Assembly (NCBI GenBank): GCA_903865775.1
Contig: CAIPKZ010000419.1
Location: forward strand, 3,678-67,677
Direction: 5' to 3'
DNA length: 64,000 nt
From: an uncultured Prolixibacteraceae bacterium
GTDB taxonomy: Bacteria > Bacteroidota > Bacteroidia > Bacteroidales > Prolixibacteraceae
The notes under the pieces were generated by a model that saw nothing but the letters and a program-made list of their open reading frames with translations, was not told the DNA's origin and ran no database searches. Positions 1-13,600 of the stretch are shown in pieces. The translations under genes were made by a program, and so were the position numbers. How positions within the stretch are numbered: position 1 is the first letter of the stretch; each line of letters begins with the position of its first letter.

Positions 1-2
1 GG

Positions 3-1418
3 CCCAGCATCACTGTTGACGGTAACACAATGATTTTCACCAAACTTGTTGGATCAAAAACTGCCTCCGGTGATAAACAGGTCATGGCCCAGGAGGACTT
101 CTATACTTCACAACTCGTGGATAATGTCTGGCAGCCCAGCGAACCTTTATCATCAATCAACACCATTTATAACGAAGGAGCACAATCAATTTCAACCGAT
201 GGGAAATTGCTGTTTTACACAGCATGTACCCGAATTGACGGAAAAGGAAGTTGCGATATCTATTATTCACGTAATAAAGCAGGAAGCTGGTCGGTTCCAC
301 AAAATGCCGGTGACCCGGTAAATTCGCCGTCGTGGGAATCTCAACCTTCCATTTCGGCCAATGGTGAAATCTTGTATTTTGTGAGCAACCGTGAAAGTGG
401 CAGAGGTGGCATGGACATTTGGAAATGCAATTTGAGAGGCTTTTCATTTTTAGGAAGTCCAATTTGGGGAAATCCGGTGAATTTGGGTGATTCGGTGAAT
501 ACCCCCGGCAATGAAATGTCTCCATTTATACATTCAGATGGAAAGACGCTTTATTTTGCCTCCGATTTTTGGCCGGGAATGGGCGGATATGATATTTTCT
601 ACTGCAGACAGAAGAACGATTCGGTTTGGTCAAGACCTCAGAATATTGGTTACCCGATTAACTCCTACAAAGATGAGCAGGGACTTGTTGTTGACGCTTC
701 CGGAAAGAACGCCTATTATTCATCAGACCGCCCAGGCTCACGAGGAATGGATATTTATTCGTTTGAACTATATAAAGAAGCACGGCCAAATCCGGTTTCA
801 TACATTAAAGGTAAGGTCGTTGACGAAGAAACAGGGGCTCCGGTTTGTGCCATAGTAGAATTAACAGATCTGGGAAATTCAAAATCGGTTATTCAAGGTG
901 AATCATGCTGGGAGAAAGGTGAATTTCTGATGTGTTTGCCTCTTGGAAAGGAATATGCTTTTAATGTTTCAAAAGAAGGTTATTTGTTTTATTCCGACAA
1001 TTTCCAGTTGAAAGAAAAGAAAGATATTATCGATCCGTATATTCTTCAAATTAAAATGAAAAAGATAAAGGTGGGCGGATCAGTGATTCTGCGAAACGTA
1101 TTCTTTGATACTGCATCGTATGAACTTTTGCCGGAATCAAAGATCGAGCTTCAAAAACTGACTGATTTTCTTAACCAGAATAATACTGTTTTTATTGAAA
1201 TTAATGGCCATACCGACAATGTCGGTAATGAGGAAATGAATCAAAAACTTTCTGAGTCGAGAGCCAAAGAAGTATTTAAATATATGGTTAGTAGCGGAAT
1301 AGATGAGTCCAGAATGAAATACACCGGATATGGTTTTACGAAACCGGTCAGTTCGAACGATTCGGCTGAAGGAAGGTCGTTAAACCGGCGTACCGAATTC
1401 AGGATAATTAAAAAGTAA
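3..1418 (+). CDS. OmpA-family protein with PD40/beta-propeller repeats (PorE-like architecture), 5'-truncated by the window edge
   Basis: The frame is open from base 3 (PSITVDG...). It has repeated PSISADG-type PD40 motifs and a C-terminal OmpA domain (GHTDNVG...LSESRA...NRRTEF). Confidence 0.85.
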   Translation, partial: PSITVDGNTMIFTKLVGSKTASGDKQVMAQEDFYTSQLVDNVWQPSEPLSSINTIYNEGAQSISTDGKLLFYTACTRIDGKGSCDIYYSRNKAGSWSVPQNAGDPVNSPSWESQPSISANGEILYFVSNRESGRGGMDIWKCNLRGFSFLGSPIWGNPVNLGDSVNTPGNEMSPFIHSDGKTLYFASDFWPGMGGYDIFYCRQKNDSVWSRPQNIGYPINSYKDEQGLVVDASGKNAYYSSDRPGSRGMDIYSFELYKEARPNPVSYIKGKVVDEETGAPVCAIVELTDLGNSKSVIQGESCWEKGEFLMCLPLGKEYAFNVSKEGYLFYSDNFQLKEKKDIIDPYILQIKMKKIKVGGSVILRNVFFDTASYELLPESKIELQKLTDFLNQNNTVFIEINGHTDNVGNEEMNQKLSESRAKEVFKYMVSSGIDESRMKYTGYGFTKPVSSNDSAEGRSLNRRTEFRIIKK

Positions 1419-1820
1419 TCATTTCAATCCATTCTGGAGAAAACATTCCGAATACTCTTTGTCTACTTCCAGAATATGATGTTCTATCCAGCCTTTCAAA
1501 AAGTTCAGCAATTCAAAAGATACAGCAATGGCTCCTCTATTTAACTCAGCTTTTAGTTCAGCAATTTTTTGTTTAAATAACTGATGTTCGCTGATATGCT
1601 TTTCAGCACCGGAATAATTGAACCGATGAAAAAAGTATTCCTCTTTTTGGAAATGAGTGACCGCATATTGTTCCAATTCCAGAATGATTTGAGTAGTTAC
1701 ACTATTGGCTTGTCCCTCTTTCATCGCCTCAAGCAAACTACTTAACAACCTGAATATCTTTTCGTGCTGAATGTCAATAGATTGAACTCCAACACTGTAT
1801 TTTTTTTCCCAAATGTACAT
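1419..1820 (-). CDS. Single-domain bacteriohemerythrin
   Basis: Iron-ligand pattern IDxQH, HFxxEE, HxxEH, HIxxxD is intact. Confidence 0.9.
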   Translation of the reverse strand: MYIWEKKYSVGVQSIDIQHEKIFRLLSSLLEAMKEGQANSVTTQIILELEQYAVTHFQKEEYFFHRFNYSGAEKHISEHQLFKQKIAELKAELNRGAIAVSFELLNFLKGWIEHHILEVDKEYSECFLQNGLK

Positions 1821-1894
1821 CAGAAATCATTTTATATTTAGTGAAAAAGAAGTAGCCAGCTAACTTTTACGAAATCAATGCAGTTAAATCGTAT

Positions 1895-2821
1895 TTAAAT
1901 TTCAAAATCCATCGCTTCAAGATTGAAAGGGGTTTGCTGATATACATAGTAATTCAGCCAATTGGTAATCATCAGGTTGGCGTGACCTCTCCATCGCATG
2001 ACGGGTTCATTTTCCGGATTATCATTAGGATAATAATTTACCGGAATTTCAATTGGCAGTTTTTTCTTTACATCCCGTTTGTATTCAGTATCCAGCGTAA
2101 ATCTGGAATATTCAGAATGCCCGGTAATGAAAAACTGACGCCCTTCCTGTGCCATGACCATATTTACCCCTGATTCATCAGATTTGGAAATAATATTCAA
2201 TTCAGACACTTTCCGGATATCTTCTTCCAACACTTCAGTATGTCTTGAATGAGGAACAAAATACTCATCGTCAAAACCTCTGTAGATAGGCAAGGCGTTA
2301 TTTACATTCTTATGTTTGAAAACGCCAAACATTTTTTTATCCAGAGTGTACTTCGGAACGCCGTAAAAATGAAACATACCGGCTTGTGCTGCCCAACAGA
2401 TGAATAGGGTAGAAGTCACGTGTTTTTGCGACCAGTCAAAAATTGCGGTAAGTTCTTTCCAATAGGTAACTTCCTCAAATGGAAGCATCTCAACTGGTGC
2501 TCCTGTGATAATCATGCCATCGTAATTTCTGGATTTTAGCTGATTAAAGGTTTTATAAAAGGCCTTCATGTGAACTTCCGGAGTATTTTTTGACTCATGA
2601 CCAGACATCCTCAAAAACTCAATCTCCACCTGCAACGGACTGTTCGAAAGCAAACGGATCAAATCGGTTTCCGTAGTAATTTTGATCGGCATCAAATTGA
2701 CTATTACAATCTTTAACGGACGAATATCCTGGTGCGCCGCACGCGATTCGTCCATGATAAAGATATTTTCCTTTTGCAGCAATTCAATTGCAGGCAATTG
2801 ATCAGGGACATTTATTGGCAT
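1895..2821 (-). CDS. metA: Homoserine O-acyltransferase MetA, predicted acetyl-specific
   Basis: MPINVP start, LFICWAAQA catalytic Cys motif and GHSEY. ITGAPVE has Glu at the acyl-specificity position (Gly in succinyltransferases), which fits the neighbouring metY. Confidence 0.95.
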   Translation of the reverse strand: MPINVPDQLPAIELLQKENIFIMDESRAAHQDIRPLKIVIVNLMPIKITTETDLIRLLSNSPLQVEIEFLRMSGHESKNTPEVHMKAFYKTFNQLKSRNYDGMIITGAPVEMLPFEEVTYWKELTAIFDWSQKHVTSTLFICWAAQAGMFHFYGVPKYTLDKKMFGVFKHKNVNNALPIYRGFDDEYFVPHSRHTEVLEEDIRKVSELNIISKSDESGVNMVMAQEGRQFFITGHSEYSRFTLDTEYKRDVKKKLPIEIPVNYYPNDNPENEPVMRWRGHANLMITNWLNYYVYQQTPFNLEAMDFEI

Positions 2822-2842
2822 AATTCAGCAGTTTATTAGAAA

Positions 2843-2987
2843 TTCCGGTGAAGCTGTTTCAAAAGGTACTTTCCCCGTCATCCTGAACTTGTTTCAGGAT
2901 CGCAATACTCAGTTCGACAGACCCCGAAATAAATTCGGGGTGACGGGTTCTACGAGTGTTTTAACTATTAAGACAGCCTCACCGGAA
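2843..2987. repeat. REP/MITE-like nested inverted repeat element
   Basis: Outer IR ttccggtgaagctgt / acagcctcaccggaa (14/15). Two inner 8-bp hairpins, at 2880-2900 and 2921-2941, are inverted copies of each other. Confidence 0.8.
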
Positions 2988-3001
2988 TATGGATTGTAAA
3001 A

Positions 3002-4324
<1,323 letters not shown>

Positions 4325-5677
4325 TTAAAAGTTCTCGTTAAAAAAAATACGATGTATTTCGGTGATGGCTTTTCGGGTGTCCTTCCGATCGACGATCAGG
4401 TAACTGACCAGGTCGGAAGCTCCCGAGCCACTCAGTAAAACATTGATTCGGTGCTGAGCAACGGCGGTAAACAATTTTGCTGAAACTCCGTGATGCTGCT
4501 GCATTCCATGTCCAACCACCGCGATGAGCGAAACCTGATCTTCAATAGTGATTTCGCTCACAGAACTGAGTTGCAAGTGCTGGCATATTTGCCATGCCTG
4601 TTCAATTTCATTTTTATTCAGGATGATGTTTATACTCACCTGTGAGGTGATCACCGAACGGATATTGATTCCGGAATGATGAAAGGCTGTAGTCACATTG
4701 GCCAGAATTCCGGGTTTAAATCCAACTCCGGGACCATTTAATTTTAAAATGGCGATATCTTCAGTATGAACTACACTCTTAACTACATTGGGCGATACAA
4801 ATGATTCGGAATTGATGATTGTCGTTAGCTCCTTACCTCCATTGGCAAGACGAAAGACCTGAATTGGAATGTGTTTGCTCATTAATGGCTCAACAATTCG
4901 CGGGTGAATGGAAAGTTCGCTGAAATAAGAAAGTTCAGAAGCCTCGTCGTATGTCAAACGTGGAATCAGTTTGGATTCAGGAATAAAGTCCGAGTCTGAA
5001 GTTCTGAATTCCTTATCGAGTTCCCATAATTGAAGTGAATCCGATTCAATGAGTCGTGCAATTCCGGCAGCCGAATAATCAGCCGACCGTTTTCCGAGAC
5101 GCACAATCTTTCCTGCTGAAGTGATTCCATAAGAACCTGGAATGAGGCTAATTCCATCGGGAATTGAATTTTTCAGCTCCTTTGATTCACTATACAAAAT
5201 GGAAGCATTTCCGAATTCTTCGGTTGCTATTAGGCCAATATCTTCAGGAAAAATCAGGCTGGCAGCGATTTGCTTATAAATCAGGAATTGGTGAAGCACG
5301 CCTGCCGTAATCCGTTCAGAAAAACTAATCACCTGATCTTTTAAAGCAAGCGAAAAATCACCGGTGAACTCGATGCCTTTAAGCAAATTCTGAAGGTTTA
5401 TAAGTTCATTTTTGAGGCTTTCAGCGGGTTCGTACTGTTGAAAAACCTGCAATTTATGGCCAATAATATTGTTTATCTGATTAATAATCAGATCAGAAGT
5501 AGCAGCATTGTTAATCAGCAATTCGATGCCTTGCTCAATGGCTTGTTGTATTTCAGGAACGGCGGAAACCACCACAGTTATTTTATTTTCTGATTCAGAA
5601 AGAAGACTTGCAAAAGCTTCTAAAGCAGTAAATTTGGATAAACTGTTTCCGCCAAATCGTACGGTACAATTTGACAT
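4325..5677 (-). CDS. Aspartokinase-like protein with two ACT domains; catalytic motifs degenerate
   Basis: AK fold markers (xFGG, VVSA, SxxER, ELSYF, HP) and two ACT domains are present. TDVDG, LGRGGSD and DP motifs are substituted. Confidence 0.8.
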   Translation of the reverse strand: MSNCTVRFGGNSLSKFTALEAFASLLSESENKITVVVSAVPEIQQAIEQGIELLINNAATSDLIINQINNIIGHKLQVFQQYEPAESLKNELINLQNLLKGIEFTGDFSLALKDQVISFSERITAGVLHQFLIYKQIAASLIFPEDIGLIATEEFGNASILYSESKELKNSIPDGISLIPGSYGITSAGKIVRLGKRSADYSAAGIARLIESDSLQLWELDKEFRTSDSDFIPESKLIPRLTYDEASELSYFSELSIHPRIVEPLMSKHIPIQVFRLANGGKELTTIINSESFVSPNVVKSVVHTEDIAILKLNGPGVGFKPGILANVTTAFHHSGINIRSVITSQVSINIILNKNEIEQAWQICQHLQLSSVSEITIEDQVSLIAVVGHGMQQHHGVSAKLFTAVAQHRINVLLSGSGASDLVSYLIVDRKDTRKAITEIHRIFFNENF

Positions 5678-5701
5678 GATAAAAAATTAAAGTGATAATT
5701 G

Positions 5702-5760
5702 GAAAAAAAACCGAGCTTTAGCCTTCAAACAACATGATTAATCACACCGCCTAAAGGCTA
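5702..5760 (-). promoter_or_regulatory. Long hairpin followed by U8; candidate attenuator element
   Basis: Minus strand TAGCCTTTAGGCGGTGTGA-TTAA-TCATGTTGTTTGAAGGCTA forms 19 consecutive WC/GU pairs, followed by 8 nt and then T8. Confidence 0.6.
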
Positions 5761-5853
5761 GTGCATTATCATAGGCATGACGGACATCAAAGAATCATGG
5801 AATCCCATTGGCCGGGAAACACTGAAAGCGGAATATTTTGCTGAATGATTCAT
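5758..5853 (-). CDS. Putative Met-rich leader peptide MNHSAKYSAFSVSRPMGFHDSLMSVMPMIMH (31 aa)
   Basis: Hand translation. 6 Met codons, 4 of them in the last 9 codons. Lies between a promoter motif and the met operon. Confidence 0.7.
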   Translation of the reverse strand: MNHSAKYSAFSVSRPMGFHDSLMSVMPMIMH

Positions 5854-5879
5854 TGTTGATAATCTATTACAATTGAGTG

Positions 5880-5909
5880 CAAACATAAACAGTTTTTCAA
5901 AATAGACAA
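5880..5909 (-). promoter_or_regulatory. Bacteroidota housekeeping promoter for the met operon leader
   Basis: TATGTTTG (-7, TAnnTTTG) at 5887-5880 and TTG (-33) 19 nt upstream. Confidence 0.6.
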
Positions 5910-5952
5910 TGTTTTATCGGAAATGTTCAGGTAAAATCCGATTAAATATTTG

Positions 5953-6615
5953 TTAATTGCCAGTTTCGTTTCCGAAGATGGACTTGAAGTTGCTGAAAAT
6001 TAAATTAATAAGTATTTCTTTTTCTATTTTCAGAATTTGCGATGCTGACAAATAGATTTGCCGGATGGAAATTTCACTGTCATCAGTTTCCAAAAATAGC
6101 CGTTCGGTAGGAATCGTTCGAAAAACAGAGTGACTGGAAACATTTTTCAGGAGTCGTTCACCTACGGAAAAATAGAATCCATGTTTTACAAGGCTCCGTG
6201 TTGTTTCCAGATTTCCATGGTAACCATGAAGTATCCAGGGAACCTCTGACTTTGTTTTAATTTTTAGATTGATGACATCAGAATAAGCTCTTACACAATG
6301 GATAATCAGGCATTTGGATTGATTTTTAGCTATTCTTATTTGTTCTCTGAAGATCATTTCCTGGATTGCGAAGTCGGTTGAGATTGATCGATCAAGACCG
6401 CATTCGCCGATCGCGATCATGTTTTTCATTTCTGAAATGCGTTCAACTGCACTGATACAATCCTCAGGATTCACCTGTCCGATGTGCCATGGATGAAGTC
6501 CGGCAGAAAAAAGAAACTCCGGTTCAGCTTTTGGAATATCCTGAGCAAAAAAATTCAGGATTTGGATGTCATCATCCTCGGTTAATCGATGGGTATGTAA
6601 ATCAATATGTTTCAT
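5953..6615 (-). CDS. TatD-family hydrolase
   Basis: DLHTH, GLHPW, IGECGLD, IHCVRA and FLETD motifs. Confidence 0.9.
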   Translation of the reverse strand: MKHIDLHTHRLTEDDDIQILNFFAQDIPKAEPEFLFSAGLHPWHIGQVNPEDCISAVERISEMKNMIAIGECGLDRSISTDFAIQEMIFREQIRIAKNQSKCLIIHCVRAYSDVINLKIKTKSEVPWILHGYHGNLETTRSLVKHGFYFSVGERLLKNVSSHSVFRTIPTERLFLETDDSEISIRQIYLSASQILKIEKEILINLIFSNFKSIFGNETGN

Positions 6616-6761
6616 CGGTTGAATAATTTCCGGTTGCAGAATATTTTATATGCAATCATTTTACTATCGGATCGTTTATTCTTTCAAAAATAGTGGCTTT
6701 TACTGAAATTAGTTTCCGTTTAATTATTTTATCTACTTTTGATGGTCACCGGTATAAAAAC

Positions 6762-8966
6762 ATGAGTATAAAAACGATATACAGAATAACACTATTCCTC
6801 TCAATTCTACTGCCAACACTGGTGATAGGACAGATTTCCGAAGGAGGGGTTCCTATTGAAATACAAAAACTTAAATCGGCTTCTTCGGATAATGACTGGA
6901 TTGTTATGCCTTCGGTTGACAACCGGAAAATGCGGATGATGAACAGCGAAACTGATCAAAAACATTTGAAGCCATTTCGGTTTGCTTATTCATTTCCGGT
7001 ACTGCTTTCTTTAAAAAATTCAGGAAAATGGTTCAATACTACCAAGGTCAATGTGTGGCAACTGTATATCCGGTCAACCAGCGCCTATTCATTGAACCTT
7101 ATTTTAGAACATTTTAAATTGCCCGATCATGCCCGGTTGTTTCTGATCAGCATGAAAACAGGTCAGATTAAAGGTGCATATACCTCGGCTAATAATTCAG
7201 ACAGCAAGGTGCTTGCCATTGAACCAGTTGAAGGCGATGAGATTCTGGTTCAGTATGAAGAACCAGTTCTGGCAGATTTCCCCGGCGAATTTCTAATCAC
7301 CAAGGTGGCCCACGATTTTATTGGCATTACTGGTGATGGAGTCCACCGTCCACTTGGAGTTTCAGGTACCTGTAATGTCAATGTAAATTGTGATGTTGCC
7401 AATGGATCGGAGAATATCAGGGATGCAGTTTGCCGGATTATTATCGAGGGAGCTGAAATTTGTTCAGGAACCATGCTAAATAATACCGCACTCGATGGAA
7501 TTCCGTATATTTTGACAGCTAATCATTGTATCGGAACAGAGAAAAAAGCCGAGGCTTCGGTATTTCTTTTCAATTACGAAGCGCCGTATTGTTCCTATTA
7601 CAATAGTCCTGCTATTGATGGCGATGTGAGCCGTTCGATGTCCGGAAGTTCGTTGAAAGCTTCGTTTGACAGTCTTGATTTTGCCCTGGTCCGGCTAAAT
7701 ACAATTCCACCCTATAATTACCGGACCTATCTGGCTGGCTGGAACAGGTTAAACATAGCACCAATTTCTTCCATGTCAATTCACCATCCGGAAGGCGATA
7801 TTAAAAAAGTATCTATTGACCTGGATGCTGCAACTACGGCCAATTTCAATGGCAGTTACCTTTCCAAGGGATTTTGGAATATTCTGACCTGGGAATATGG
7901 CGTTACCGAAGCAGGTTCCTCAGGTGGGGGATTATTCGACCAAAACAAGCAACTGATCGGATCACTGACCGGTGGTTCTTCGAACTGTACATCGAAGAAA
8001 AATGACTTTTATGAAAAATTCACTTTAAGCTGGAGCCACCGGAATGAAACAAATAAACAACTTCAATATTGGCTCGATCCGCTCAATTCGAATGTTGAAA
8101 AACTTGCTGGAATGGCTTCAAATTCAGGCAAAACACTCTGTATACCTTTCACAAATTTCAAGAATGGTGAGACTCAGGCAGTCATTCCGATTACGAATGG
8201 ATTAACAAAAAAAGGTTATTGGAGTGGGTCGAACAATGCCGGATTTACCGATTTTGCCGAAAAGTTCACGTTCTCCAGAAATTGTGAAGTTCAGGGAATT
8301 ACGATCGGTATTGCGAAAAAGAAAATCAATCCTTCAAACACGAAGCCATTAATCGAAATTCAGGTATACCAAGGAAAAGATAATCCGGAAACTTTGATTT
8401 ACTCTGAGATGTTCGACATCAGCAAATTTACCGTTGATGCTATGAATTACCTGTCATTCAAAAATCCGGTAAAAACAGAACGAAATTTTTTCGTCTCTTA
8501 CAACATTTCACAGTTGCAGCAAAGCGATACCCTGGTCGTTTATATGGCAAACCGCAAGTCGGATGTTACCAACAGCTTTTACCTCAAAAATCAAACCGGA
8601 TGGTCAACTTATAATGCGAATAATCCAAGCGGCAATGGCTCAGCTTTACTGTTCGAATTAATAGCCTGTAATATTGATGATCCCGTAGGAATCGATGAAT
8701 TTAAGACTGATTTACCCGGGGCACGTTTCTTTCCAAATCCGCTGACCGGAAATTCAGTTTTAACTATTCAGACCGCTGATCCTATTGATTGTGAAGAAGA
8801 AATTGCAGTTTACAATTTACTTGGAAAGAAACTGGATGTGCAATACATTTTAACCGGTTCAAACAGTCTGAGCCTGATTTTTTCCGGCAAAAGCCCTGGC
8901 ATTTACCTGATTCATCTGGATGCCGGAGGACGAACAATCACTGGGAAAATTGCCTATATGCCCTAA
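6762..8966 (+). CDS. Secreted trypsin-like (lysyl endopeptidase-like) serine protease with T9SS C-terminal domain
   Basis: Catalytic triad TANHC, DFAL, GSSGG. Signal peptide from ATG 6762. C-terminal FFPNP...GIYLI...KI sorting domain. Confidence 0.85.
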   Translation: MSIKTIYRITLFLSILLPTLVIGQISEGGVPIEIQKLKSASSDNDWIVMPSVDNRKMRMMNSETDQKHLKPFRFAYSFPVLLSLKNSGKWFNTTKVNVWQLYIRSTSAYSLNLILEHFKLPDHARLFLISMKTGQIKGAYTSANNSDSKVLAIEPVEGDEILVQYEEPVLADFPGEFLITKVAHDFIGITGDGVHRPLGVSGTCNVNVNCDVANGSENIRDAVCRIIIEGAEICSGTMLNNTALDGIPYILTANHCIGTEKKAEASVFLFNYEAPYCSYYNSPAIDGDVSRSMSGSSLKASFDSLDFALVRLNTIPPYNYRTYLAGWNRLNIAPISSMSIHHPEGDIKKVSIDLDAATTANFNGSYLSKGFWNILTWEYGVTEAGSSGGGLFDQNKQLIGSLTGGSSNCTSKKNDFYEKFTLSWSHRNETNKQLQYWLDPLNSNVEKLAGMASNSGKTLCIPFTNFKNGETQAVIPITNGLTKKGYWSGSNNAGFTDFAEKFTFSRNCEVQGITIGIAKKKINPSNTKPLIEIQVYQGKDNPETLIYSEMFDISKFTVDAMNYLSFKNPVKTERNFFVSYNISQLQQSDTLVVYMANRKSDVTNSFYLKNQTGWSTYNANNPSGNGSALLFELIACNIDDPVGIDEFKTDLPGARFFPNPLTGNSVLTIQTADPIDCEEEIAVYNLLGKKLDVQYILTGSNSLSLIFSGKSPGIYLIHLDAGGRTITGKIAYMP

Positions 8967-8997
8967 ATTAATGGGAGATTAGTTGAATGGCGAATGA

Positions 8998-9795
8998 TTA
9001 CTTTGTTCCTTCAAAGTAACCAGCCATCTGGGTAGCTTCCTGAGAATTGATGAAATCGGCCTTTGAAGTTTTTATTATATCAGCAACAGTTTTGTTGTTT
9101 GGACAATTCGTAAAACTGATTTTCTTATTCTGCGCATGAATTTTGGTTACCAAATCCTTGATTTTCACAAAGTCCTCAAACGGAATGTTCCCGGTTCCTT
9201 TCCAGCTTGTAATTTTACTGAAATCGATCTCAATTAAAGGCATTTGGCCTGAATCCACATTTTTTTCCATATCACTCAAACTGCCAACCAATCCGAGGAA
9301 ACTGGATTTAATACCATTAATCTGGTTCAATTGATTTTTGTCTTTGATCAGGATTCGGATTTTTCCCTGATGTTCATTCCCTTCTGCTTTTGAGCTAAGC
9401 ATTTCCGAAAACGGGCGCATTTCGCTGGCTAAATGTTTATATATCTGAACGGGTTGGGTCGTGAAATTTAAGATCAGAAATACATCTCCGGAATAGCCCG
9501 GAATAATTTCTCCACTATTCTTTTTAAACTGATTGTAGAGCGGGTAGAGGTAAGCTTCCGTCAGAGTAGGCAATTTATGGGCGGCACTATCCGGCATCAG
9601 TGAAGTTACATACAGCTTTCCGTAGATGTACATTACATCAGCCTGGTAGTTAAGAATTCCATTTCCGATTGATTCCCACAATTCTGATTTGCTGTCAAAA
9701 TTATGTGACGAAATGATTGGTTTTACCTTCATCTGCGAATAGGCCGACAGACCTACCAATAAAGCCAAAACAACGATAAGCAATTTGTTTTTCAT
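8998..9795 (-). CDS. Exported PLC-like phosphodiesterase-fold protein, apparently degenerate
   Basis: Signal peptide from ATG 9795. SSHNFD..., QADV... and TLTEAYLYPL resemble the HSHNDY/EADV/TLxxLYLxPL family. Confidence 0.5.
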   Translation of the reverse strand: MKNKLLIVVLALLVGLSAYSQMKVKPIISSHNFDSKSELWESIGNGILNYQADVMYIYGKLYVTSLMPDSAAHKLPTLTEAYLYPLYNQFKKNSGEIIPGYSGDVFLILNFTTQPVQIYKHLASEMRPFSEMLSSKAEGNEHQGKIRILIKDKNQLNQINGIKSSFLGLVGSLSDMEKNVDSGQMPLIEIDFSKITSWKGTGNIPFEDFVKIKDLVTKIHAQNKKISFTNCPNNKTVADIIKTSKADFINSQEATQMAGYFEGTK

Positions 9796-9896
9796 AGTCA
9801 CGCCTATAATATCTCCGGGTTTCTCAGTAAAAATAATTGTTTTCAATCTTAAAACTCAAATATCAGTCATTATTTTACAGAATGTTCCTATTGGAT

Positions 9897-10418
9897 CTAA
9901 TGATCAGTGAATTTCTCCCAATGTACTATTTCCGACAGAGATTTTCTGATTTTTACCGGTATTTCAGAGTTCGTGTACCCGATCGGAACCAAAACCATTG
10001 GTTCGAGGTGATCTGGAAGTCTGAGCTTTTTTCTCACCAGAGTTGCATCAAAATTACTTACCCAGCAAGTTCCAAGTCCCAGCTCTGTTGCTTTTAAAAT
10101 CAGATGATCGGTTACAATGGCCACATCAACATCGGCAAAATCTTTTCCGTCCGATTTCCGCTTCCATGATTGCGAGTGGTCTGAACAGATTACAATACAA
10201 ACCGGCGCTTCCCTGAACCAATTTCTTGGATAAACTTCCTGAAAATCAGATAAATTATCCGGTTCAGTAAGAACCAGAAAATGCCATGGCTGGTAATTAC
10301 ATGCCGATGGAGCCAAGCGGGCTGCTTCCAGAATTTCAAAAATCAAACTTCTCTCAACCGGTTTTTTTGTATATGATCTGACAGAAAACCGGCTGGCAAT
10401 GAGTTTACTAAATTCCAT
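9897..10418 (-). CDS. Nitroreductase family protein
   Basis: RFSVRSY, APSACNYQPW and LGTCWV motifs. Confidence 0.9.
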   Translation of the reverse strand: MEFSKLIASRFSVRSYTKKPVERSLIFEILEAARLAPSACNYQPWHFLVLTEPDNLSDFQEVYPRNWFREAPVCIVICSDHSQSWKRKSDGKDFADVDVAIVTDHLILKATELGLGTCWVSNFDATLVRKKLRLPDHLEPMVLVPIGYTNSEIPVKIRKSLSEIVHWEKFTDH

Positions 10419-10681
10419 GACTTAAAATTTGCAATTATTCATTCAAATGTACTCCATTAATTCAGAAACTAAAAGACCTGGTCCTACCTGAAATGACATC
10501 CTGAACTGATGCCTATTTGTACTTTTACTGATTTAATGGCAGTTATTGGCTTGAAAAATGCAATTCTGACCGTACTTTGACCGTTTTATCCACTGGCACG
10601 ATAATCGTAAAAAGCAATTTCAGATTTAAACAATATAACTACCTTTGAAACTTCAAATTTTGATCAATTAAAAACTGAATA

Positions 10682-13600
10682 ATGGCATTTTTAAATAAAA
10701 TTCTGGGCAAATTTCTGGGCAATAAAGCAGACAAAGATATGGCTGAAATTGCGCCAATGCTTGAACTTATCAAAAAAGAATACGAACGTATTAAACTTTT
10801 GTCAACTGATGAACTTCGGGACGAATCGGCCCGGTTAAAAGCAGTAATCCAGGAAAGGATCAAACCAGAGGAAGACCGGATCAAAGAACTCAATGAACTG
10901 GTGGAAACCGTTGAAATTCAGGAAAGTGAAAAGCTTTACCAGGAAATCGACAAATTGGAAGAAAAAATTACAGATAAGTTGGAAGCGGTTTTGAACGAAA
11001 TCTTGCCGGCAGCTTTCTCGGTTGTGAAAGCTACTGCAAAACTCTTTTTTGAAAATGAGCGGATTGTTGCAAAAGCAACTGATTTCGACCGTGATCTGGC
11101 TGCTGTACGAAATAGTATTGAAATTGAAGGAGAAAACGCGGTCTGGTTCAATAAATGGATGGCCGGCGGAAACCAAATCACCTGGGATATGGTTCATTAC
11201 GATGTTCAGCTCATCGGAGGTATTGTTCTGCATCAGGGTAAAGTTGCTGAAATGGGCACTGGTGAAGGAAAAACACTGGTTGCAACTTTGGCTGTATTCC
11301 TGAATGCATTGGCCGGAAGAGGTGTTCACCTGGTTACAGTAAACGATTACCTGTCGAAACGTGACTCGGAGTGGATGGGGCCGATCTTCGAATTTCATGG
11401 TCTGAGCGTGGATTGTATCGACAAACATCAGCCAAACTCCGAAGGCCGCCGCAAAGCATATCTTGCCGATGTCACTTACGGAACCAATAACGAATTCGGG
11501 TTCGATTATTTGCGCGATAATATGGCAATCAGCCCGCGCGATCTGGTACAACGCAAACATCATTATTCAATCGTCGATGAGGTCGATTCGGTTTTGATCG
11601 ATGATGCCCGTACTCCTCTGATTATTTCAGGACCAATTCCTAAAGGCGAAATTCAGAAATTTGAAGAACTTAAGCCAAAGGTTGAAAAACTATATGCAGC
11701 ACAGCGAAACCAGGTCAATCAGTGTCTTTCGGATGCCAAACGTATCCTGAATAATCCCAATGCAACCAAGGATGAGAAAGAAGCCGGTTCGATTCTGCTT
11801 TTGCGTGCACACAAGGGTTTGCCAAAAAATAAGGCCATCATCAAATTCCTGAGTGAAGAAGGAATAAAGGCCATGATGACCAAAACAGAAAATTACCATA
11901 TGCAGGACAATAACAAGCTCATGCATATTGTTACTGATGATCTGTTTTTTGTGATCGAAGAAAAGCAAAATTCGGTAGAATTGACCGATAAGGGAATTGA
12001 CCTGATTTCGGATGATAATGATGACCCAACATTCTTCGTTCTGCCTGACGTTGGCTCTGAAATTGCTGAAATTGAACAAAATAAAGAATTGACCAAAGAG
12101 CAGGTTCTGGAAAAGAAAGATGAATTACTGACCAGTTATTCGATCAAATCGGAACGTGTTCATACCATCAACCAGCTGTTGAAAGCCTACGCCATGTTCG
12201 AAAAGGATGTGGAATATGTAGTGATTGAAAATAAGGTGAAAATTGTGGACGAACAAACCGGCCGTATCATGGAAGGTCGTCGTTATTCTGACGGTTTACA
12301 CCAGGCTATTGAAGCCAAAGAGCATGTGAAAGTTGAAGCCGCTACGCAAACCTTTGCCACCATTACACTTCAGAATTACTTCAGGATGTATCACAAACTG
12401 GCCGGTATGACTGGTACTGCCGAAACTGAAGCAGGTGAGTTGTGGGACATCTACAAGCTGGATGTGGTGGTTATCCCGACCAACCGGAAAGTTATCCGTC
12501 AGGACCGCGAAGATTTGGTTTATAAAACCAAACGCGAAAAATACAGCGCCGTTGTTGACGAAATCGTTGAGCTGAATAAGATAGGAAGACCGGTTTTGGT
12601 AGGAACAACCTCGGTTGAAATCTCGGAATTACTGAGTCGTTACCTGAAAATGCGTGGCATCAAACACAACGTGCTGAATGCCAAAATGCATGCCCGTGAA
12701 GCTGAAATAGTTGCCGATGCCGGGGTAAATGGCATGGTGACCATCGCGACCAACATGGCTGGTCGTGGTACCGACATCAAATTAACTGCTGAAGTGAAGT
12801 CATTGGGTGGTTTGGCCATTATCGGTACCGAACGCCATGAGTCGCGTCGTGTCGACCGCCAGTTGCGCGGACGTTCCGGTCGACAGGGAGACCCGGGTTC
12901 TTCTCAGTTCTTTGTTTCGCTTGAAGACGATCTAATGCGTTTGTTTGGTTCCGACCGAATTACCGGAATCATGGATAAAATTGGTTTGAAGGAAGGCGAA
13001 ATGATTCAGCATTCCATGATTACCAAGTCGATTGAGCGGGCACAGAAAAAGGTTGAAGAGAATAACTTCGGAATTCGTAAACGCTTGCTGGAGTATGATG
13101 ATGTGATGAACTCTCAGCGTGAGGTAATCTATAAAAAGCGTCGTCATGCCTTGTTTGGCGACCGACTCGAAGTTGATATCCTAAATACCATGTACGATGT
13201 GATCGAAAATTTGGTCAGCGAATATCAGGAAAACGGAATGTTCGATGAGTTTAACAACGAACTGATCCGCCTGATGTCGATGGAATCGCCTGTTTCCGAA
13301 AAAGATTTTATGAACATGAAGGCCGATGACCTGGTCGATCAGATTTATCAGGAAATGGTTGCAAGCTATTCGCGAAGAATGGACATTATTGCCAAACAAG
13401 CCTATCCGGTAATTCGTGATGTTTATGAGACAAAATCTCACCTATACACCAATATTGTTGTTCCAATTTCGGATGGAAAACACATTTTCCAGATTATAAC
13501 TAATTTGGAAAAGGCATACAAAAACCAGGGAAAAGAACTGGTAAAATCATACCAGAAACAAACTGTTTTGTCGACCATCGACGATTCATGGAAAGAACAA

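What the first reader, a model, noticed from the sequence alone, without database searches (positions are those of the whole stretch)
4325..5677. Aspartokinase pseudoenzyme with intact ACT domains heading the met operon
Seen versus canonical AK motifs: KFGG is RFGG, VSAMGGxT is VSAVPEIQ, SxGE is SFSE, GF is GS, TLGRGGSD is RLGKRSAD, TDVDG is ELDKE and ADP is SDS. The two C-terminal ACT domains look well preserved and the ORF is full length. Inference: it is likely a catalytically dead AK kept as an amino-acid sensor or regulatory subunit (compare the ACT-only beta subunit of alpha2beta2 aspartokinases), possibly modulating a true AK, MetA or MetY. With the leader peptide this would be an undescribed two-layer Met control module.
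Basis: partly seen in the sequence, partly recalled or inferred. Interest (0 to 1): 0.72.

Follow-up and report, generated by a model that had tools for sequence, protein, structure and literature searches.

The report
Catalytically dead aspartokinase kept in met operon
The first gene of this bacterium's methionine operon is an aspartate-kinase look-alike that lost its catalytic residues once, long ago, yet has been kept under strong selection across a whole bacterial family, so it probably now works as a sensor or regulator, not as the enzyme databases call it.

Summary
The ORF lies on the minus strand (5677..4325, 450 aa). It has the full class-I aspartokinase architecture: an amino-acid-kinase domain plus two ACT domains (AF2 pLDDT 90; TM 0.84-0.87 to M. 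jannaschii and Arabidopsis AKs).

The changes are clade-wide, not strain decay. About 70 orthologs, from all the major named Prolixibacteraceae genera recovered and some Bacteroidales MAGs, form one clade (SH-aLRT 100, long stem). That clade nests among canonical AKs that occupy the same slot (Met-rich leader, AK, MetY, acyltransferase).

In the dead clade, K7R is fixed. The former substrate and nucleotide positions have become highly variable. The ACT domains are more constrained than the kinase domain (dN/dS 0.02-0.09 versus 0.07-0.24).

The genome has two canonical AKs (ThrA-type and LysC-type). The best reading is a pseudoenzyme retained as a ligand-sensing regulatory protein of the Asp-to-Met branch. 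Its partner and ligand are unknown. No description was found in the searchable literature, and databases label it "aspartate kinase".

The parts
4325..5677 (-). AK-like pseudoenzyme gene (450 aa, P0001), first structural gene of the met operon
   Evidence: ORF. Pfam AA_kinase plus ACT_9/ACT_7/ACT. Below every NCBIfam AK cut-off. AF2 pLDDT 90 and Foldseek TM 0.84-0.87 to 3c1m and 2cdq.
4793..5677 (-). Degenerate amino-acid-kinase domain (residues 1-295). Changed: R7 for the catalytic Lys, S182 for Phe, K196 for the Asp-carboxylate Arg, ELDKE for TDVxG, SEL for GAK. Retained: E121 and D200.
   Evidence: Alignments. Entropy analysis. dN/dS 0.07-0.24.
4328..4792 (-). Two ACT domains (residues about 296-450) with intact Gly-rich ligand loops (LNGPGVGFKPGILA and VVGHGMQQHHGVSAKLF)
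   Evidence: Pfam. Beta-alpha-beta-beta-alpha-beta repeated twice in the AF2 model. dN/dS 0.02-0.09. ACT/kinase identity ratio 1.5, versus 1.07 in canonical relatives.
5758..5853 (-). 31-codon Met-rich leader ORF (MNHSAKYSAFSVSRPMGFHDSLMSVMPMIMH*)
   Evidence: Sequence. A homologous ...MxMxMR leader, with its stop usually about 85-95 nt before the start codon, is found in the great majority of the ~70 loci carrying the degenerate gene, and in loci with a canonical AK. It is also retained in relatives that lack the AK-like gene.
5705..5760 (-). 19-bp hairpin followed by a U-run (intrinsic-terminator-like), starting right after the leader stop codon
   Evidence: strand folding gave -29.9 kcal/mol, z = -3.2. 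The consensus terminator scan did not list it.
3002..4306 (-). metY, O-acetylhomoserine sulfhydrylase, 18 nt downstream
   Evidence: Pfam Cys_Met_Meta_PP and TIGR01326 at 666 bits. Immediately downstream in about 60 of the 70 loci with a degenerate gene; the rest are truncated contigs or AKL-MetA loci.
1895..2821 (-). metA, homoserine O-acetyltransferase (HTS fold, acetyl type)
   Evidence: PF04204 and NF047918 at 489.9 bits, above the 460.5 cut-off.
1419..1820 (-). Hemerythrin-domain gene ending the gene string (present only in close relatives)
   Evidence: Pfam PF01814. Present in L016, L021, L023, L027 and L037 only.

Best explanation
The gene encodes a non-catalytic descendant of a methionine-operon aspartokinase.

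Ancestral state (still seen in some Prolixibacteraceae genera and other Bacteroidales): the operon began with a real, Met-dedicated AK. It sat behind a Met-rich leader peptide, sometimes with homoserine dehydrogenase in the same operon.

One lineage lost AK chemistry once. The catalytic Lys became Arg, and the Asp-carboxylate Arg and the nucleotide-binding loops decayed. The whole class-I AK fold was kept, and selection on the two ACT domains tightened.

Inferred mechanism: the protein is made only when Met-tRNA is scarce. It binds a small-molecule effector at the ACT domains. That effector would be a pathway amino acid or SAM, as in real AKs. Through protein-protein contact it then tunes flux into the Asp -> homoserine -> Met branch.

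The most likely targets are the genome's Thr/Lys-controlled AK or AK-HSDH (about 0.3). That would resemble the ACT-only beta subunit of alpha2beta2 AKs, or the AK module of a split MetL. Next most likely are the co-translated MetY or homoserine acyltransferase (about 0.25).

Shown here: loss of catalytic residues, single origin, purifying selection, shift of constraint toward the ACT domains, operon context, and the presence of two canonical AKs. Inferred only: ligand binding, the partner, and the direction of regulation.
For: Catalytic residues:
- K8 and D202 (catalysis) and E119 and R198 (Asp binding) of E. coli AKIII are the defining residues (PMC4142519).
- Here K->R7 and R->K196. R7 is 100% fixed in the clade. 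Position 196 is hypervariable at 2.67 bits.
- Canonical-invariant G42, T44, K219, D220, V221, G223, P229 and G253 all become variable, at 1.7-2.5 bits.
- The protein falls below all NCBIfam AK cut-offs.

The fold is kept: pLDDT 90, TM 0.84-0.87 to AKs.

Selection: dN/dS is 0.04-0.2 overall, and ACT is lower than kinase. The ACT/kinase identity ratio is 1.5, versus 1.07 in canonical operon AKs.

Origin: one clade, SH-aLRT 100, stem 0.68-0.86, nested in canonical AKs.

Context:
- Canonical orthologs occupy the same slot: leader-AK-MetY-MetA in the same GTDB family, and AK-MetY-MetX-Hom-MetH in Bacteroidales MAGs.
- Synteny with MetY holds in about 60 of 70 loci with a degenerate gene.
- The Met-rich leader is conserved.
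- The genome has ThrA-type and LysC-type canonical AKs.

New clade-specific invariant residues: R7, D107, S109, R193, A199, H390, M392, Q393 and the S416-S418 segment.
Against: - No biochemical data exist. Ligand, partner and oligomeric state are all unknown.
- The gene is dispensable in evolution. 22 of 61 family genomes lack it, and at least four of those keep leader-MetY-MetA.
- The adjacent acyltransferase is non-homologous between subclades (MetA versus MetX). Two loci lack the adjacent MetY. This weakens the case for a specific complex with any one operon enzyme.
- Identity to the genome's ThrA and LysC is only 26% and 22%, so hetero-oligomerisation with them is not a given.
- E121, D200 and S38 are retained and R7 is fixed. 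Some residual or altered ligand chemistry in the old active site therefore cannot be excluded.
Confidence: 0.72

Rival explanations
1. It is still an enzyme: an aspartokinase with an unusual active site (Arg in place of Lys), or a kinase or transferase acting on another substrate or phosphate donor in the old Asp pocket.
For: K->R is conservative and 100% fixed. D200, E121, S38, G181 and G195 are retained. New invariant residues R193 and S182 line the former substrate region. The kinase domain is under purifying selection, dN/dS 0.07-0.24.
Against: The phosphate-binding Gly loop varies within the clade: RFGG, RLGG, RLSG, RIEG, RING, RYDG, RLSE. The nucleotide-site positions 219-223, 229 and 253, and the Asp-carboxylate Arg, are hypervariable. 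An active site under selection would not drift like this. All AK family models score it below cut-off.
Confidence: 0.08
2. It is a decaying relic: a redundant third AK drifting toward loss, with no function of its own.
For: The gene has been lost repeatedly in the family (22 of 61 genomes, sometimes within a genus). A second, independent partial degeneration is seen in G054. AK activity is redundant with ThrA and LysC.
Against: The frames are intact in almost all of the roughly 70 genomes, across many genera, at 35-55% identity. The one exception is L063, from a fragmentary MAG contig. dN/dS is about 0.1, and 0.02-0.09 in the ACT domains. The ACT domains are more conserved than in active relatives. 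AF2 gives a confident fold.
Confidence: 0.02
3. It is a stand-alone metabolite-binding protein: a homodimer that buffers or sequesters an effector, or signals to a non-metabolic partner such as transcription or translation machinery. In this reading it is not a subunit of a pathway enzyme.
For: No single operon enzyme is an invariant neighbour. Relatives without it have working-looking MetY-MetA operons. Class-I AKs are self-sufficient ACT-mediated homodimers (PMC4142519).
Against: There is no precedent in the AK family. The operon position and tight spacing to metY (18 nt) suggest a pathway-internal role. No nucleic-acid-binding domain is present.
Confidence: 0.15

Closest known systems
Class-I homodimeric aspartokinases (M. 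jannaschii Thr-sensitive AK 3c1m/2hmf; Arabidopsis AK1 2cdq, Lys+SAM; E. coli AKIII 2j0w)
   Same: Same domain order and fold: AA-kinase N-lobe and C-lobe plus ACT1 and ACT2. TM 0.79-0.87, phmmer E 1e-45. The Gly-rich ACT loops are retained.
   Different: The catalytic Lys, the Asp-carboxylate Arg and the nucleotide-binding motifs are lost and free to vary. It scores below all AK family cut-offs.
Canonical met-operon aspartokinases of Bacteroidota (L082, L086, L087, L095-L103); functional analogue: E. coli MetL (AKII-HSDHII), the Met-controlled isozyme
   Same: Orthologous operon slot behind the same Met-rich leader and in front of MetY and the acyltransferase. They are the nearest relatives in the tree.
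   Different: Those proteins keep KFGG, GRGGSDY, WKDVxGF and FGAKILHPR, and some operons also carry Hom. Operons with the dead form never carry Hom.
ACT-only beta subunit of alpha2beta2 (class II) aspartokinases (C. glutamicum LysC-beta, 2dtj/3aaw)
   Same: A non-catalytic polypeptide with two ACT domains from the AK family, which could pair with a catalytic chain to build effector sites (E 7e-7 to the ACT region).
   Different: Beta subunits are made from an internal start in lysC and have no kinase domain. This is a separate full-length gene with a folded but dead kinase domain, and no conserved internal start (M266 is not conserved). Pairing is untested.
HisZ (a catalytically dead HisRS paralog that is the regulatory subunit of ATP-phosphoribosyltransferase HisG) and MetW (accessory protein of MetX). 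Recalled from background knowledge, not tested here.
   Same: An enzyme paralog or accessory protein without its ancestral catalysis, encoded in an amino-acid biosynthesis operon, and thought to confer regulation.
   Different: Unrelated folds. For this protein no partner or ligand is known.

Membership tests
Aspartate kinase (EC 2.7.2.4), class I | Amino-acid-kinase fold followed by two ACT domains | tested here: met
   Pfam. AF2 model pLDDT 90. Foldseek TM 0.84-0.87 to 3c1m and 2cdq.
Aspartate kinase (EC 2.7.2.4), class I | Catalytic Lys of the KFGG loop (E. coli AKIII K8) | tested here: not met
   R7 in the window protein and in 100% of 60 non-redundant clade members. K in 100% of 86 canonical relatives. 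Residue role from PMC4142519.
Aspartate kinase (EC 2.7.2.4), class I | Aspartate-binding pair E119 / R198 (AKIII numbering) | tested here: not met
   E121 is retained (97%). The Arg is K196 here and hypervariable in the clade (2.67 bits).
Aspartate kinase (EC 2.7.2.4), class I | Catalytic Asp of the GGSDY loop (AKIII D202) | tested here: met
   D200 is invariant, but the flanking GG became (R/x)(S/A) and S became A199.
Aspartate kinase (EC 2.7.2.4), class I | Nucleotide-site motifs W(T/K)DVxG, DPR and FGAK | tested here: not met
   ELDKE, SDSD and FSEL here. Positions 219-223, 229 and 253 are variable in the clade (1.7-2.5 bits).
Aspartate kinase (EC 2.7.2.4), class I | Score above curated family cut-offs (NCBIfam/TIGRFAM) | tested here: not met
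   TIGR00657: 207.6 versus 208.7. All equivalogs are far below their cut-offs, for example PRK06291 at 229 versus 528.
Aspartate kinase (EC 2.7.2.4), class I | Aspartate-dependent ATP phosphotransfer activity | not testable with these tools
   Needs an enzyme assay or complementation of an AK-null strain.
ACT-only regulatory beta subunit of alpha2beta2 aspartokinase | Consists of the two ACT domains only, translated from an internal start of the AK gene | tested here: not met
   Full-length 450-aa protein from its own gene. The candidate internal Met (M266) is not conserved.
ACT-only regulatory beta subunit of alpha2beta2 aspartokinase | Pairs with a catalytic alpha chain to form effector sites | not testable with these tools
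   No multimer prediction or interaction data are available.
Regulatory pseudoenzyme (HisZ-like concept) | Paralog of an enzyme, catalytic residues lost, maintained by purifying selection | tested here: met
Regulatory pseudoenzyme (HisZ-like concept) | Binds a catalytic partner and confers allosteric control | not testable with these tools
   Partner unknown. Context evidence is ambiguous.

The most novel reading that the evidence does not exclude
The dead aspartokinase is a starvation-induced, swap-in allosteric subunit. It is made only when the Met leader attenuator reads through. It docks through its ACT and kinase-domain interfaces onto the Thr-inhibited AK-HSDH (ThrA), or onto a stand-alone Hom, and re-programmes that enzyme's feedback control from Thr to Met/SAM. 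The old Asp pocket (E121, D200, plus the new invariant R7, R193 and S182) would serve as a second ligand site. That would be a new way to solve the branched-pathway problem: a pseudo-isozyme in place of a third isozyme.
Probability: 0.2. Interest if true: 0.85.

Novelty: new variant of a known kind. Interest (0 to 1): 0.62.

Why it matters
1. It is a clean natural experiment. The same operon slot holds an active aspartokinase in some genera and a dead but strongly conserved one in others, so function-after-catalysis can be dissected by direct comparison.

2. Bacterial pseudoenzymes in amino-acid pathways are rare and instructive. If this one re-wires feedback control of the aspartate pathway under Met starvation, it adds a new regulatory principle for branched pathways.

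3. Practical point: these proteins are annotated 'aspartate kinase' in public databases. Metabolic reconstructions of Prolixibacteraceae therefore over-count AK isozymes.

4. Cultured species carry the gene (Aquipluma nitroreducens, Sunxiuqinia elliptica, Mangrovibacterium marinum, Mariniphaga sediminis), so it is testable.

Tried and rejected
- Riboswitch or other known RNA upstream of the gene: none in window 1-12000 at E <= 1. The control element is the leader ORF plus hairpin.
- Pseudogene or decay hypothesis: rejected by dN/dS and by the intact frames.
- Strain-specific decay: rejected, because orthologs at 44-95% identity share the motifs.
- Internal start giving an ACT-only beta subunit: M266 is not conserved.
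- Link to a second homoserine dehydrogenase. A second HSDH occurs in 12 of 22 genomes without the gene, against 1 of 30 with the dead form. However, the window's own genome has both, within-genus contrasts are mostly neutral, and no phylogenetic correction was made. I do not rely on it.
- Obligatory partnership with MetA: weakened by the MetX-type acyltransferase in subclade L085/L088/L089 and by relatives that keep MetY-MetA without the gene.
- P0218, another partly degenerate AK: it lies in an unrelated context next to a MutS2-like gene, so it is not part of this family.
- Literature: four full-text searches found no description of a dead AK in a met operon. GapMind 2026 does not mention it.
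- Complex prediction with ThrA, LysC, MetY or MetA: no multimer tool was available.
- Weak Hammerhead_HH10 hit inside metA (E 0.13, 25.9 versus 75 bits): treated as chance.

Full report
WHAT IS THERE

The ORF at 4325-5677 is on the minus strand (5677..4325; 450 aa). Pfam finds an amino-acid-kinase domain (residues 7-275) and two ACT domains. NCBIfam aligns it end to end with aspartokinase models, but below every curated cut-off. TIGR00657 scores 207.6 against 208.7, and the equivalogs reach less than half of their thresholds.

The gene is the first structural gene of a minus-strand string:
- a 31-codon Met-rich leader ORF, 5853..5758 (MNHSAKYSAFSVSRPMGFHDSLMSVMPMIMH*);
- a 19-bp hairpin with a U-run, about 5760..5705 (-29.9 kcal/mol, z -3.2);
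- the AK-like gene;
- metY, 18 nt later (O-acetylhomoserine sulfhydrylase, 4306..3002);
- metA (acetyl-type homoserine O-acyltransferase, 2821..1895);
- a hemerythrin-domain gene, 1820..1419.

No riboswitch or other Rfam family lies upstream.

CHECK OF THE OBSERVATION

- R7-FGG for KFGG
- SAVPEIQ for SAMxxxT
- SFSER for SFGER
- PGS for PGF
- RLGKRSADY for TLGRGGSDY
- WELDKE for WTDVxG
- SDSD for ADPR
- FSEL for FGAK

The two canonical AKs are a ThrA-type AK-HSDH on contig C310 and a LysC-type 415-aa AK on C299.

The published roles of these residues are as follows. AKIII K8 and D202 act in catalysis. E119 and R198 bind the alpha-amino and alpha-carboxylate groups of aspartate. MjAK D239 and R241 bind the nucleotide (PMC4142519). 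Here K8 is Arg and R198 is Lys. D202 (D200) and E119 (E121) are kept. The DPR Arg is Asp.

The fold itself is intact. An AF2 model built on 51 sequences has pLDDT 90 and pTM 0.87, with two beta-alpha-beta-beta-alpha-beta ACT units. It superposes on M. jannaschii AK and on Arabidopsis AK1 (Lys + SAM) with TM 0.84-0.87.

IS IT STRAIN DECAY OR A FAMILY TRAIT?

A word-index search returned 833 relatives. The 120 best (76-100% identity) are mostly from Prolixibacteraceae, and their sources call them 'aspartate kinase', 'ACT domain-containing protein' or 'hypothetical protein'. All those inspected share the degenerate motifs.

An exhaustive profile-free search of 50%-identity representatives showed that the degenerate type extends down to about 36% identity (P0123, P0124, P0125, P0131, P0146). 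The next-best hits are canonical AKs of about 460 aa.

A scan of one genome per species gave 80 loci. The degenerate form occurs in:
- Sunxiuqinia, Mangrovibacterium, Draconibacterium, Mariniphaga, Maribellus and Tangfeifania;
- a Salinivirgaceae MAG;
- a divergent Bacteroidales/VLC group.

Cultured carriers include S. elliptica, S. dokdonensis, M. marinum, M. lignilyticum and M. sediminis. Aquipluma nitroreducens is a further cultured carrier.

In a maximum-likelihood tree the degenerate sequences are one side of a single branch. Support is SH-aLRT 100 and the stem length is 0.68-0.86 substitutions per site. The group is nested among canonical AKs.

SELECTION

Nei-Gojobori dN/dS was computed on 37 ortholog pairs with dS < 1.5. 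It is 0.04-0.21 overall, 0.05-0.24 for the kinase domain, and about 0-0.12 (mostly 0.02-0.09) for the ACT region.

I compared column entropies in 60 non-redundant dead-clade members with 86 canonical relatives. Positions invariant in real AKs split into three classes:
- Fixed to a different residue: K7R at 100%.
- Released from constraint: G42, T44, R196, K219, D220, V221, G223, P229 and G253, at 1.7-2.7 bits. The Gly loop reads RFGG, RLGG, RLSG, RIEG, RING, RYDG or RLSE.
- Still invariant: structural residues E245, E248, Y251, F252, H258, P259 and P264, all Gly-rich ACT loop residues, and also E121, D200 and Y201.

New clade-specific invariants appear: R7, I102, G106, D107, S109, G156, R193, A199, and in ACT2 H390, M392, Q393, S416-G417-S418 and D422.

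At matched overall divergence (40-60% identity), the ACT/kinase identity ratio is about 1.5 in the dead clade and about 1.07 in canonical met-operon AKs.

So the old active site is drifting while the scaffold, and especially the ACT domains, are held. This is the signature of a pseudoenzyme. It fits neither a decaying gene nor an enzyme with a re-tooled site.

ORIGIN AND CONTEXT

In essentially every locus with enough sequence, the gene is followed by MetY and a homoserine acyltransferase. It is preceded by a homologous Met-rich leader ending ...MxMxMR, with the leader stop about 85-95 nt before the start codon.

The nearest canonical AKs sit in the same slot:
- In eight genomes of the same GTDB family the operon is leader-AK(canonical)-MetY-MetA (L095-L099, L101-L103).
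- In Bacteroidales MAGs it is AK-MetY-MetX-Hom(-MetH) (L082, L086, L092).

No operon with the dead form contains Hom.

One family member, G054 (L100), nests inside the canonical clade but is partly degenerate: KLGA, PGSYG, LFGQNGSDYM, WKSTDGF. It has a long terminal branch. This suggests that catalysis at this slot is dispensable and can be lost again.

Of 61 family genomes, 30 carry the dead form, 8 the canonical form, 1 the partial form, and 22 carry none. Four of eight gene-less genomes examined keep leader-MetY-MetA, with a 142-296-nt gap where the gene would be. The protein is therefore an accessory and is not required for MetY or MetA to work.

The acyltransferase neighbour is HTS-type MetA in most subclades. 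It is alpha/beta-hydrolase MetX in the VLC subclade. Two loci have AKL-MetA without MetY.

MECHANISM (INFERENCE)

The protein is co-expressed with the Met branch when the leader attenuator reads through. It cannot plausibly phosphorylate aspartate. Its most constrained parts are the ACT domains, which in class-I AKs form the dimer interface and bind the end-product effector (PMC4142519).

I therefore read it as a ligand-sensing regulatory protein of the Asp -> homoserine -> Met route. Candidate partners are:
- the Thr/Lys-controlled ThrA or LysC, or an HSDH. That would be a 'split MetL' or beta-subunit-like arrangement. It would make sense of the ancestry, of the retained kinase-domain scaffold, and of the need to override Thr/Lys feedback during Met starvation;
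- MetY or the acyltransferase, because of tight operon coupling.

I could not discriminate between these. A raw anticorrelation with a second HSDH exists: 12 of 22 genomes without the gene against 1 of 30 with the dead form. It is not corrected for phylogeny and is contradicted by the window's own genome, which has a stand-alone Hom as well. I give it little weight.

COMPARISON WITH WHAT IS KNOWN

By fold and ancestry this is a class-I aspartokinase family member. It fails the defining catalytic features, so it should not be filed as an aspartate kinase.

It resembles the ACT-only beta subunit of class-II AKs in being a non-catalytic ACT carrier. Unlike that subunit, it is a separate full-length gene. 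Conceptually it resembles HisZ-type regulatory pseudoenzymes (from background knowledge).

Four full-text literature searches and a reading of GapMind 2026 found no description of it.

VERDICT

The pseudoenzyme interpretation is well supported at the sequence and evolutionary level. The regulatory role, ligand and partner are inferred only.

It is a new variant of a known kind (a dead paralog of an allosteric enzyme kept in its pathway operon). It has an unusually clear active-versus-dead ortholog contrast, and cultured carriers are available for testing.

Noticed in passing
L086:5676-5792 and about 5806-5913 (Bacteroidales MAG OY762280.1): In a relative with a canonical AK-MetY-MetX-Hom-MetH operon, a SAM-I riboswitch (RF00162, 71 bits) is followed directly by the Met-rich leader ORF and then the AK gene. 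This looks like a tandem SAM riboswitch plus Met leader-peptide control region.
   Followed up: partly
window 5705-5853 (-): The leader ORF's stop codon lies at the foot of the 19-bp terminator-like hairpin. A ribosome paused on the last Met codons would cover the hairpin's 5' arm. No separate antiterminator was looked for. The simple consensus terminator scan missed this hairpin.
   Followed up: partly
L100 (G054:C24): A partly degenerate AK (KLGA, PGSYG, LFGQNGSDYM, WKSTDGF; catalytic K kept) sits inside the canonical family clade, in the same AK-MetY-MetA slot, on a long terminal branch. This may be a second, younger loss of catalysis.
   Followed up: partly
L111-L114 (G002, G035, G034, G023): Family genomes without the AK-like gene keep the Met-rich leader and MetY-MetA. 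A 142-296-nt spacer takes the gene's place. L111:2949-3052 shows a very faint similarity to AKL residues 137-174 (E 0.5), perhaps a deletion scar.
   Followed up: partly
G000 contigs C420:1-555 (-) and C94:3861-4745 (-) (L116, L115): The window's genome has a stand-alone homoserine dehydrogenase split across two contig ends, next to a small RelA/SpoT-type synthetase gene. G002 has the same Hom and RelA_SpoT genes a gene apart (an MFS transporter lies between them). Its two congeners showed only the ThrA HSDH.
   Followed up: partly
L118:151-1524: P0218 is another partly degenerate AK homolog (KLGA, PGSFG, GGDDYA, WTETAG, FDQRHFHPR). It lies next to a MutS2-like gene in an unrelated context and falls outside the dead clade.
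   Followed up: no
L088:9681-10319: In the divergent VLC subclade the operon is dead AK - MetY - MetX - FKBP-type prolyl isomerase. The FKBP gene may be coincidental.
   Followed up: no
window 1419-1820 (-): A hemerythrin-domain gene closes the met gene string. It is present only in close relatives (L016, L021, L023, L027, L037).
   Followed up: no
window 5953-6615 (-): A TatD-family hydrolase gene lies just upstream of the leader. It is a conserved neighbour in close relatives, and lies downstream of metA in the Draconibacterium/Mariniphaga group.
   Followed up: no
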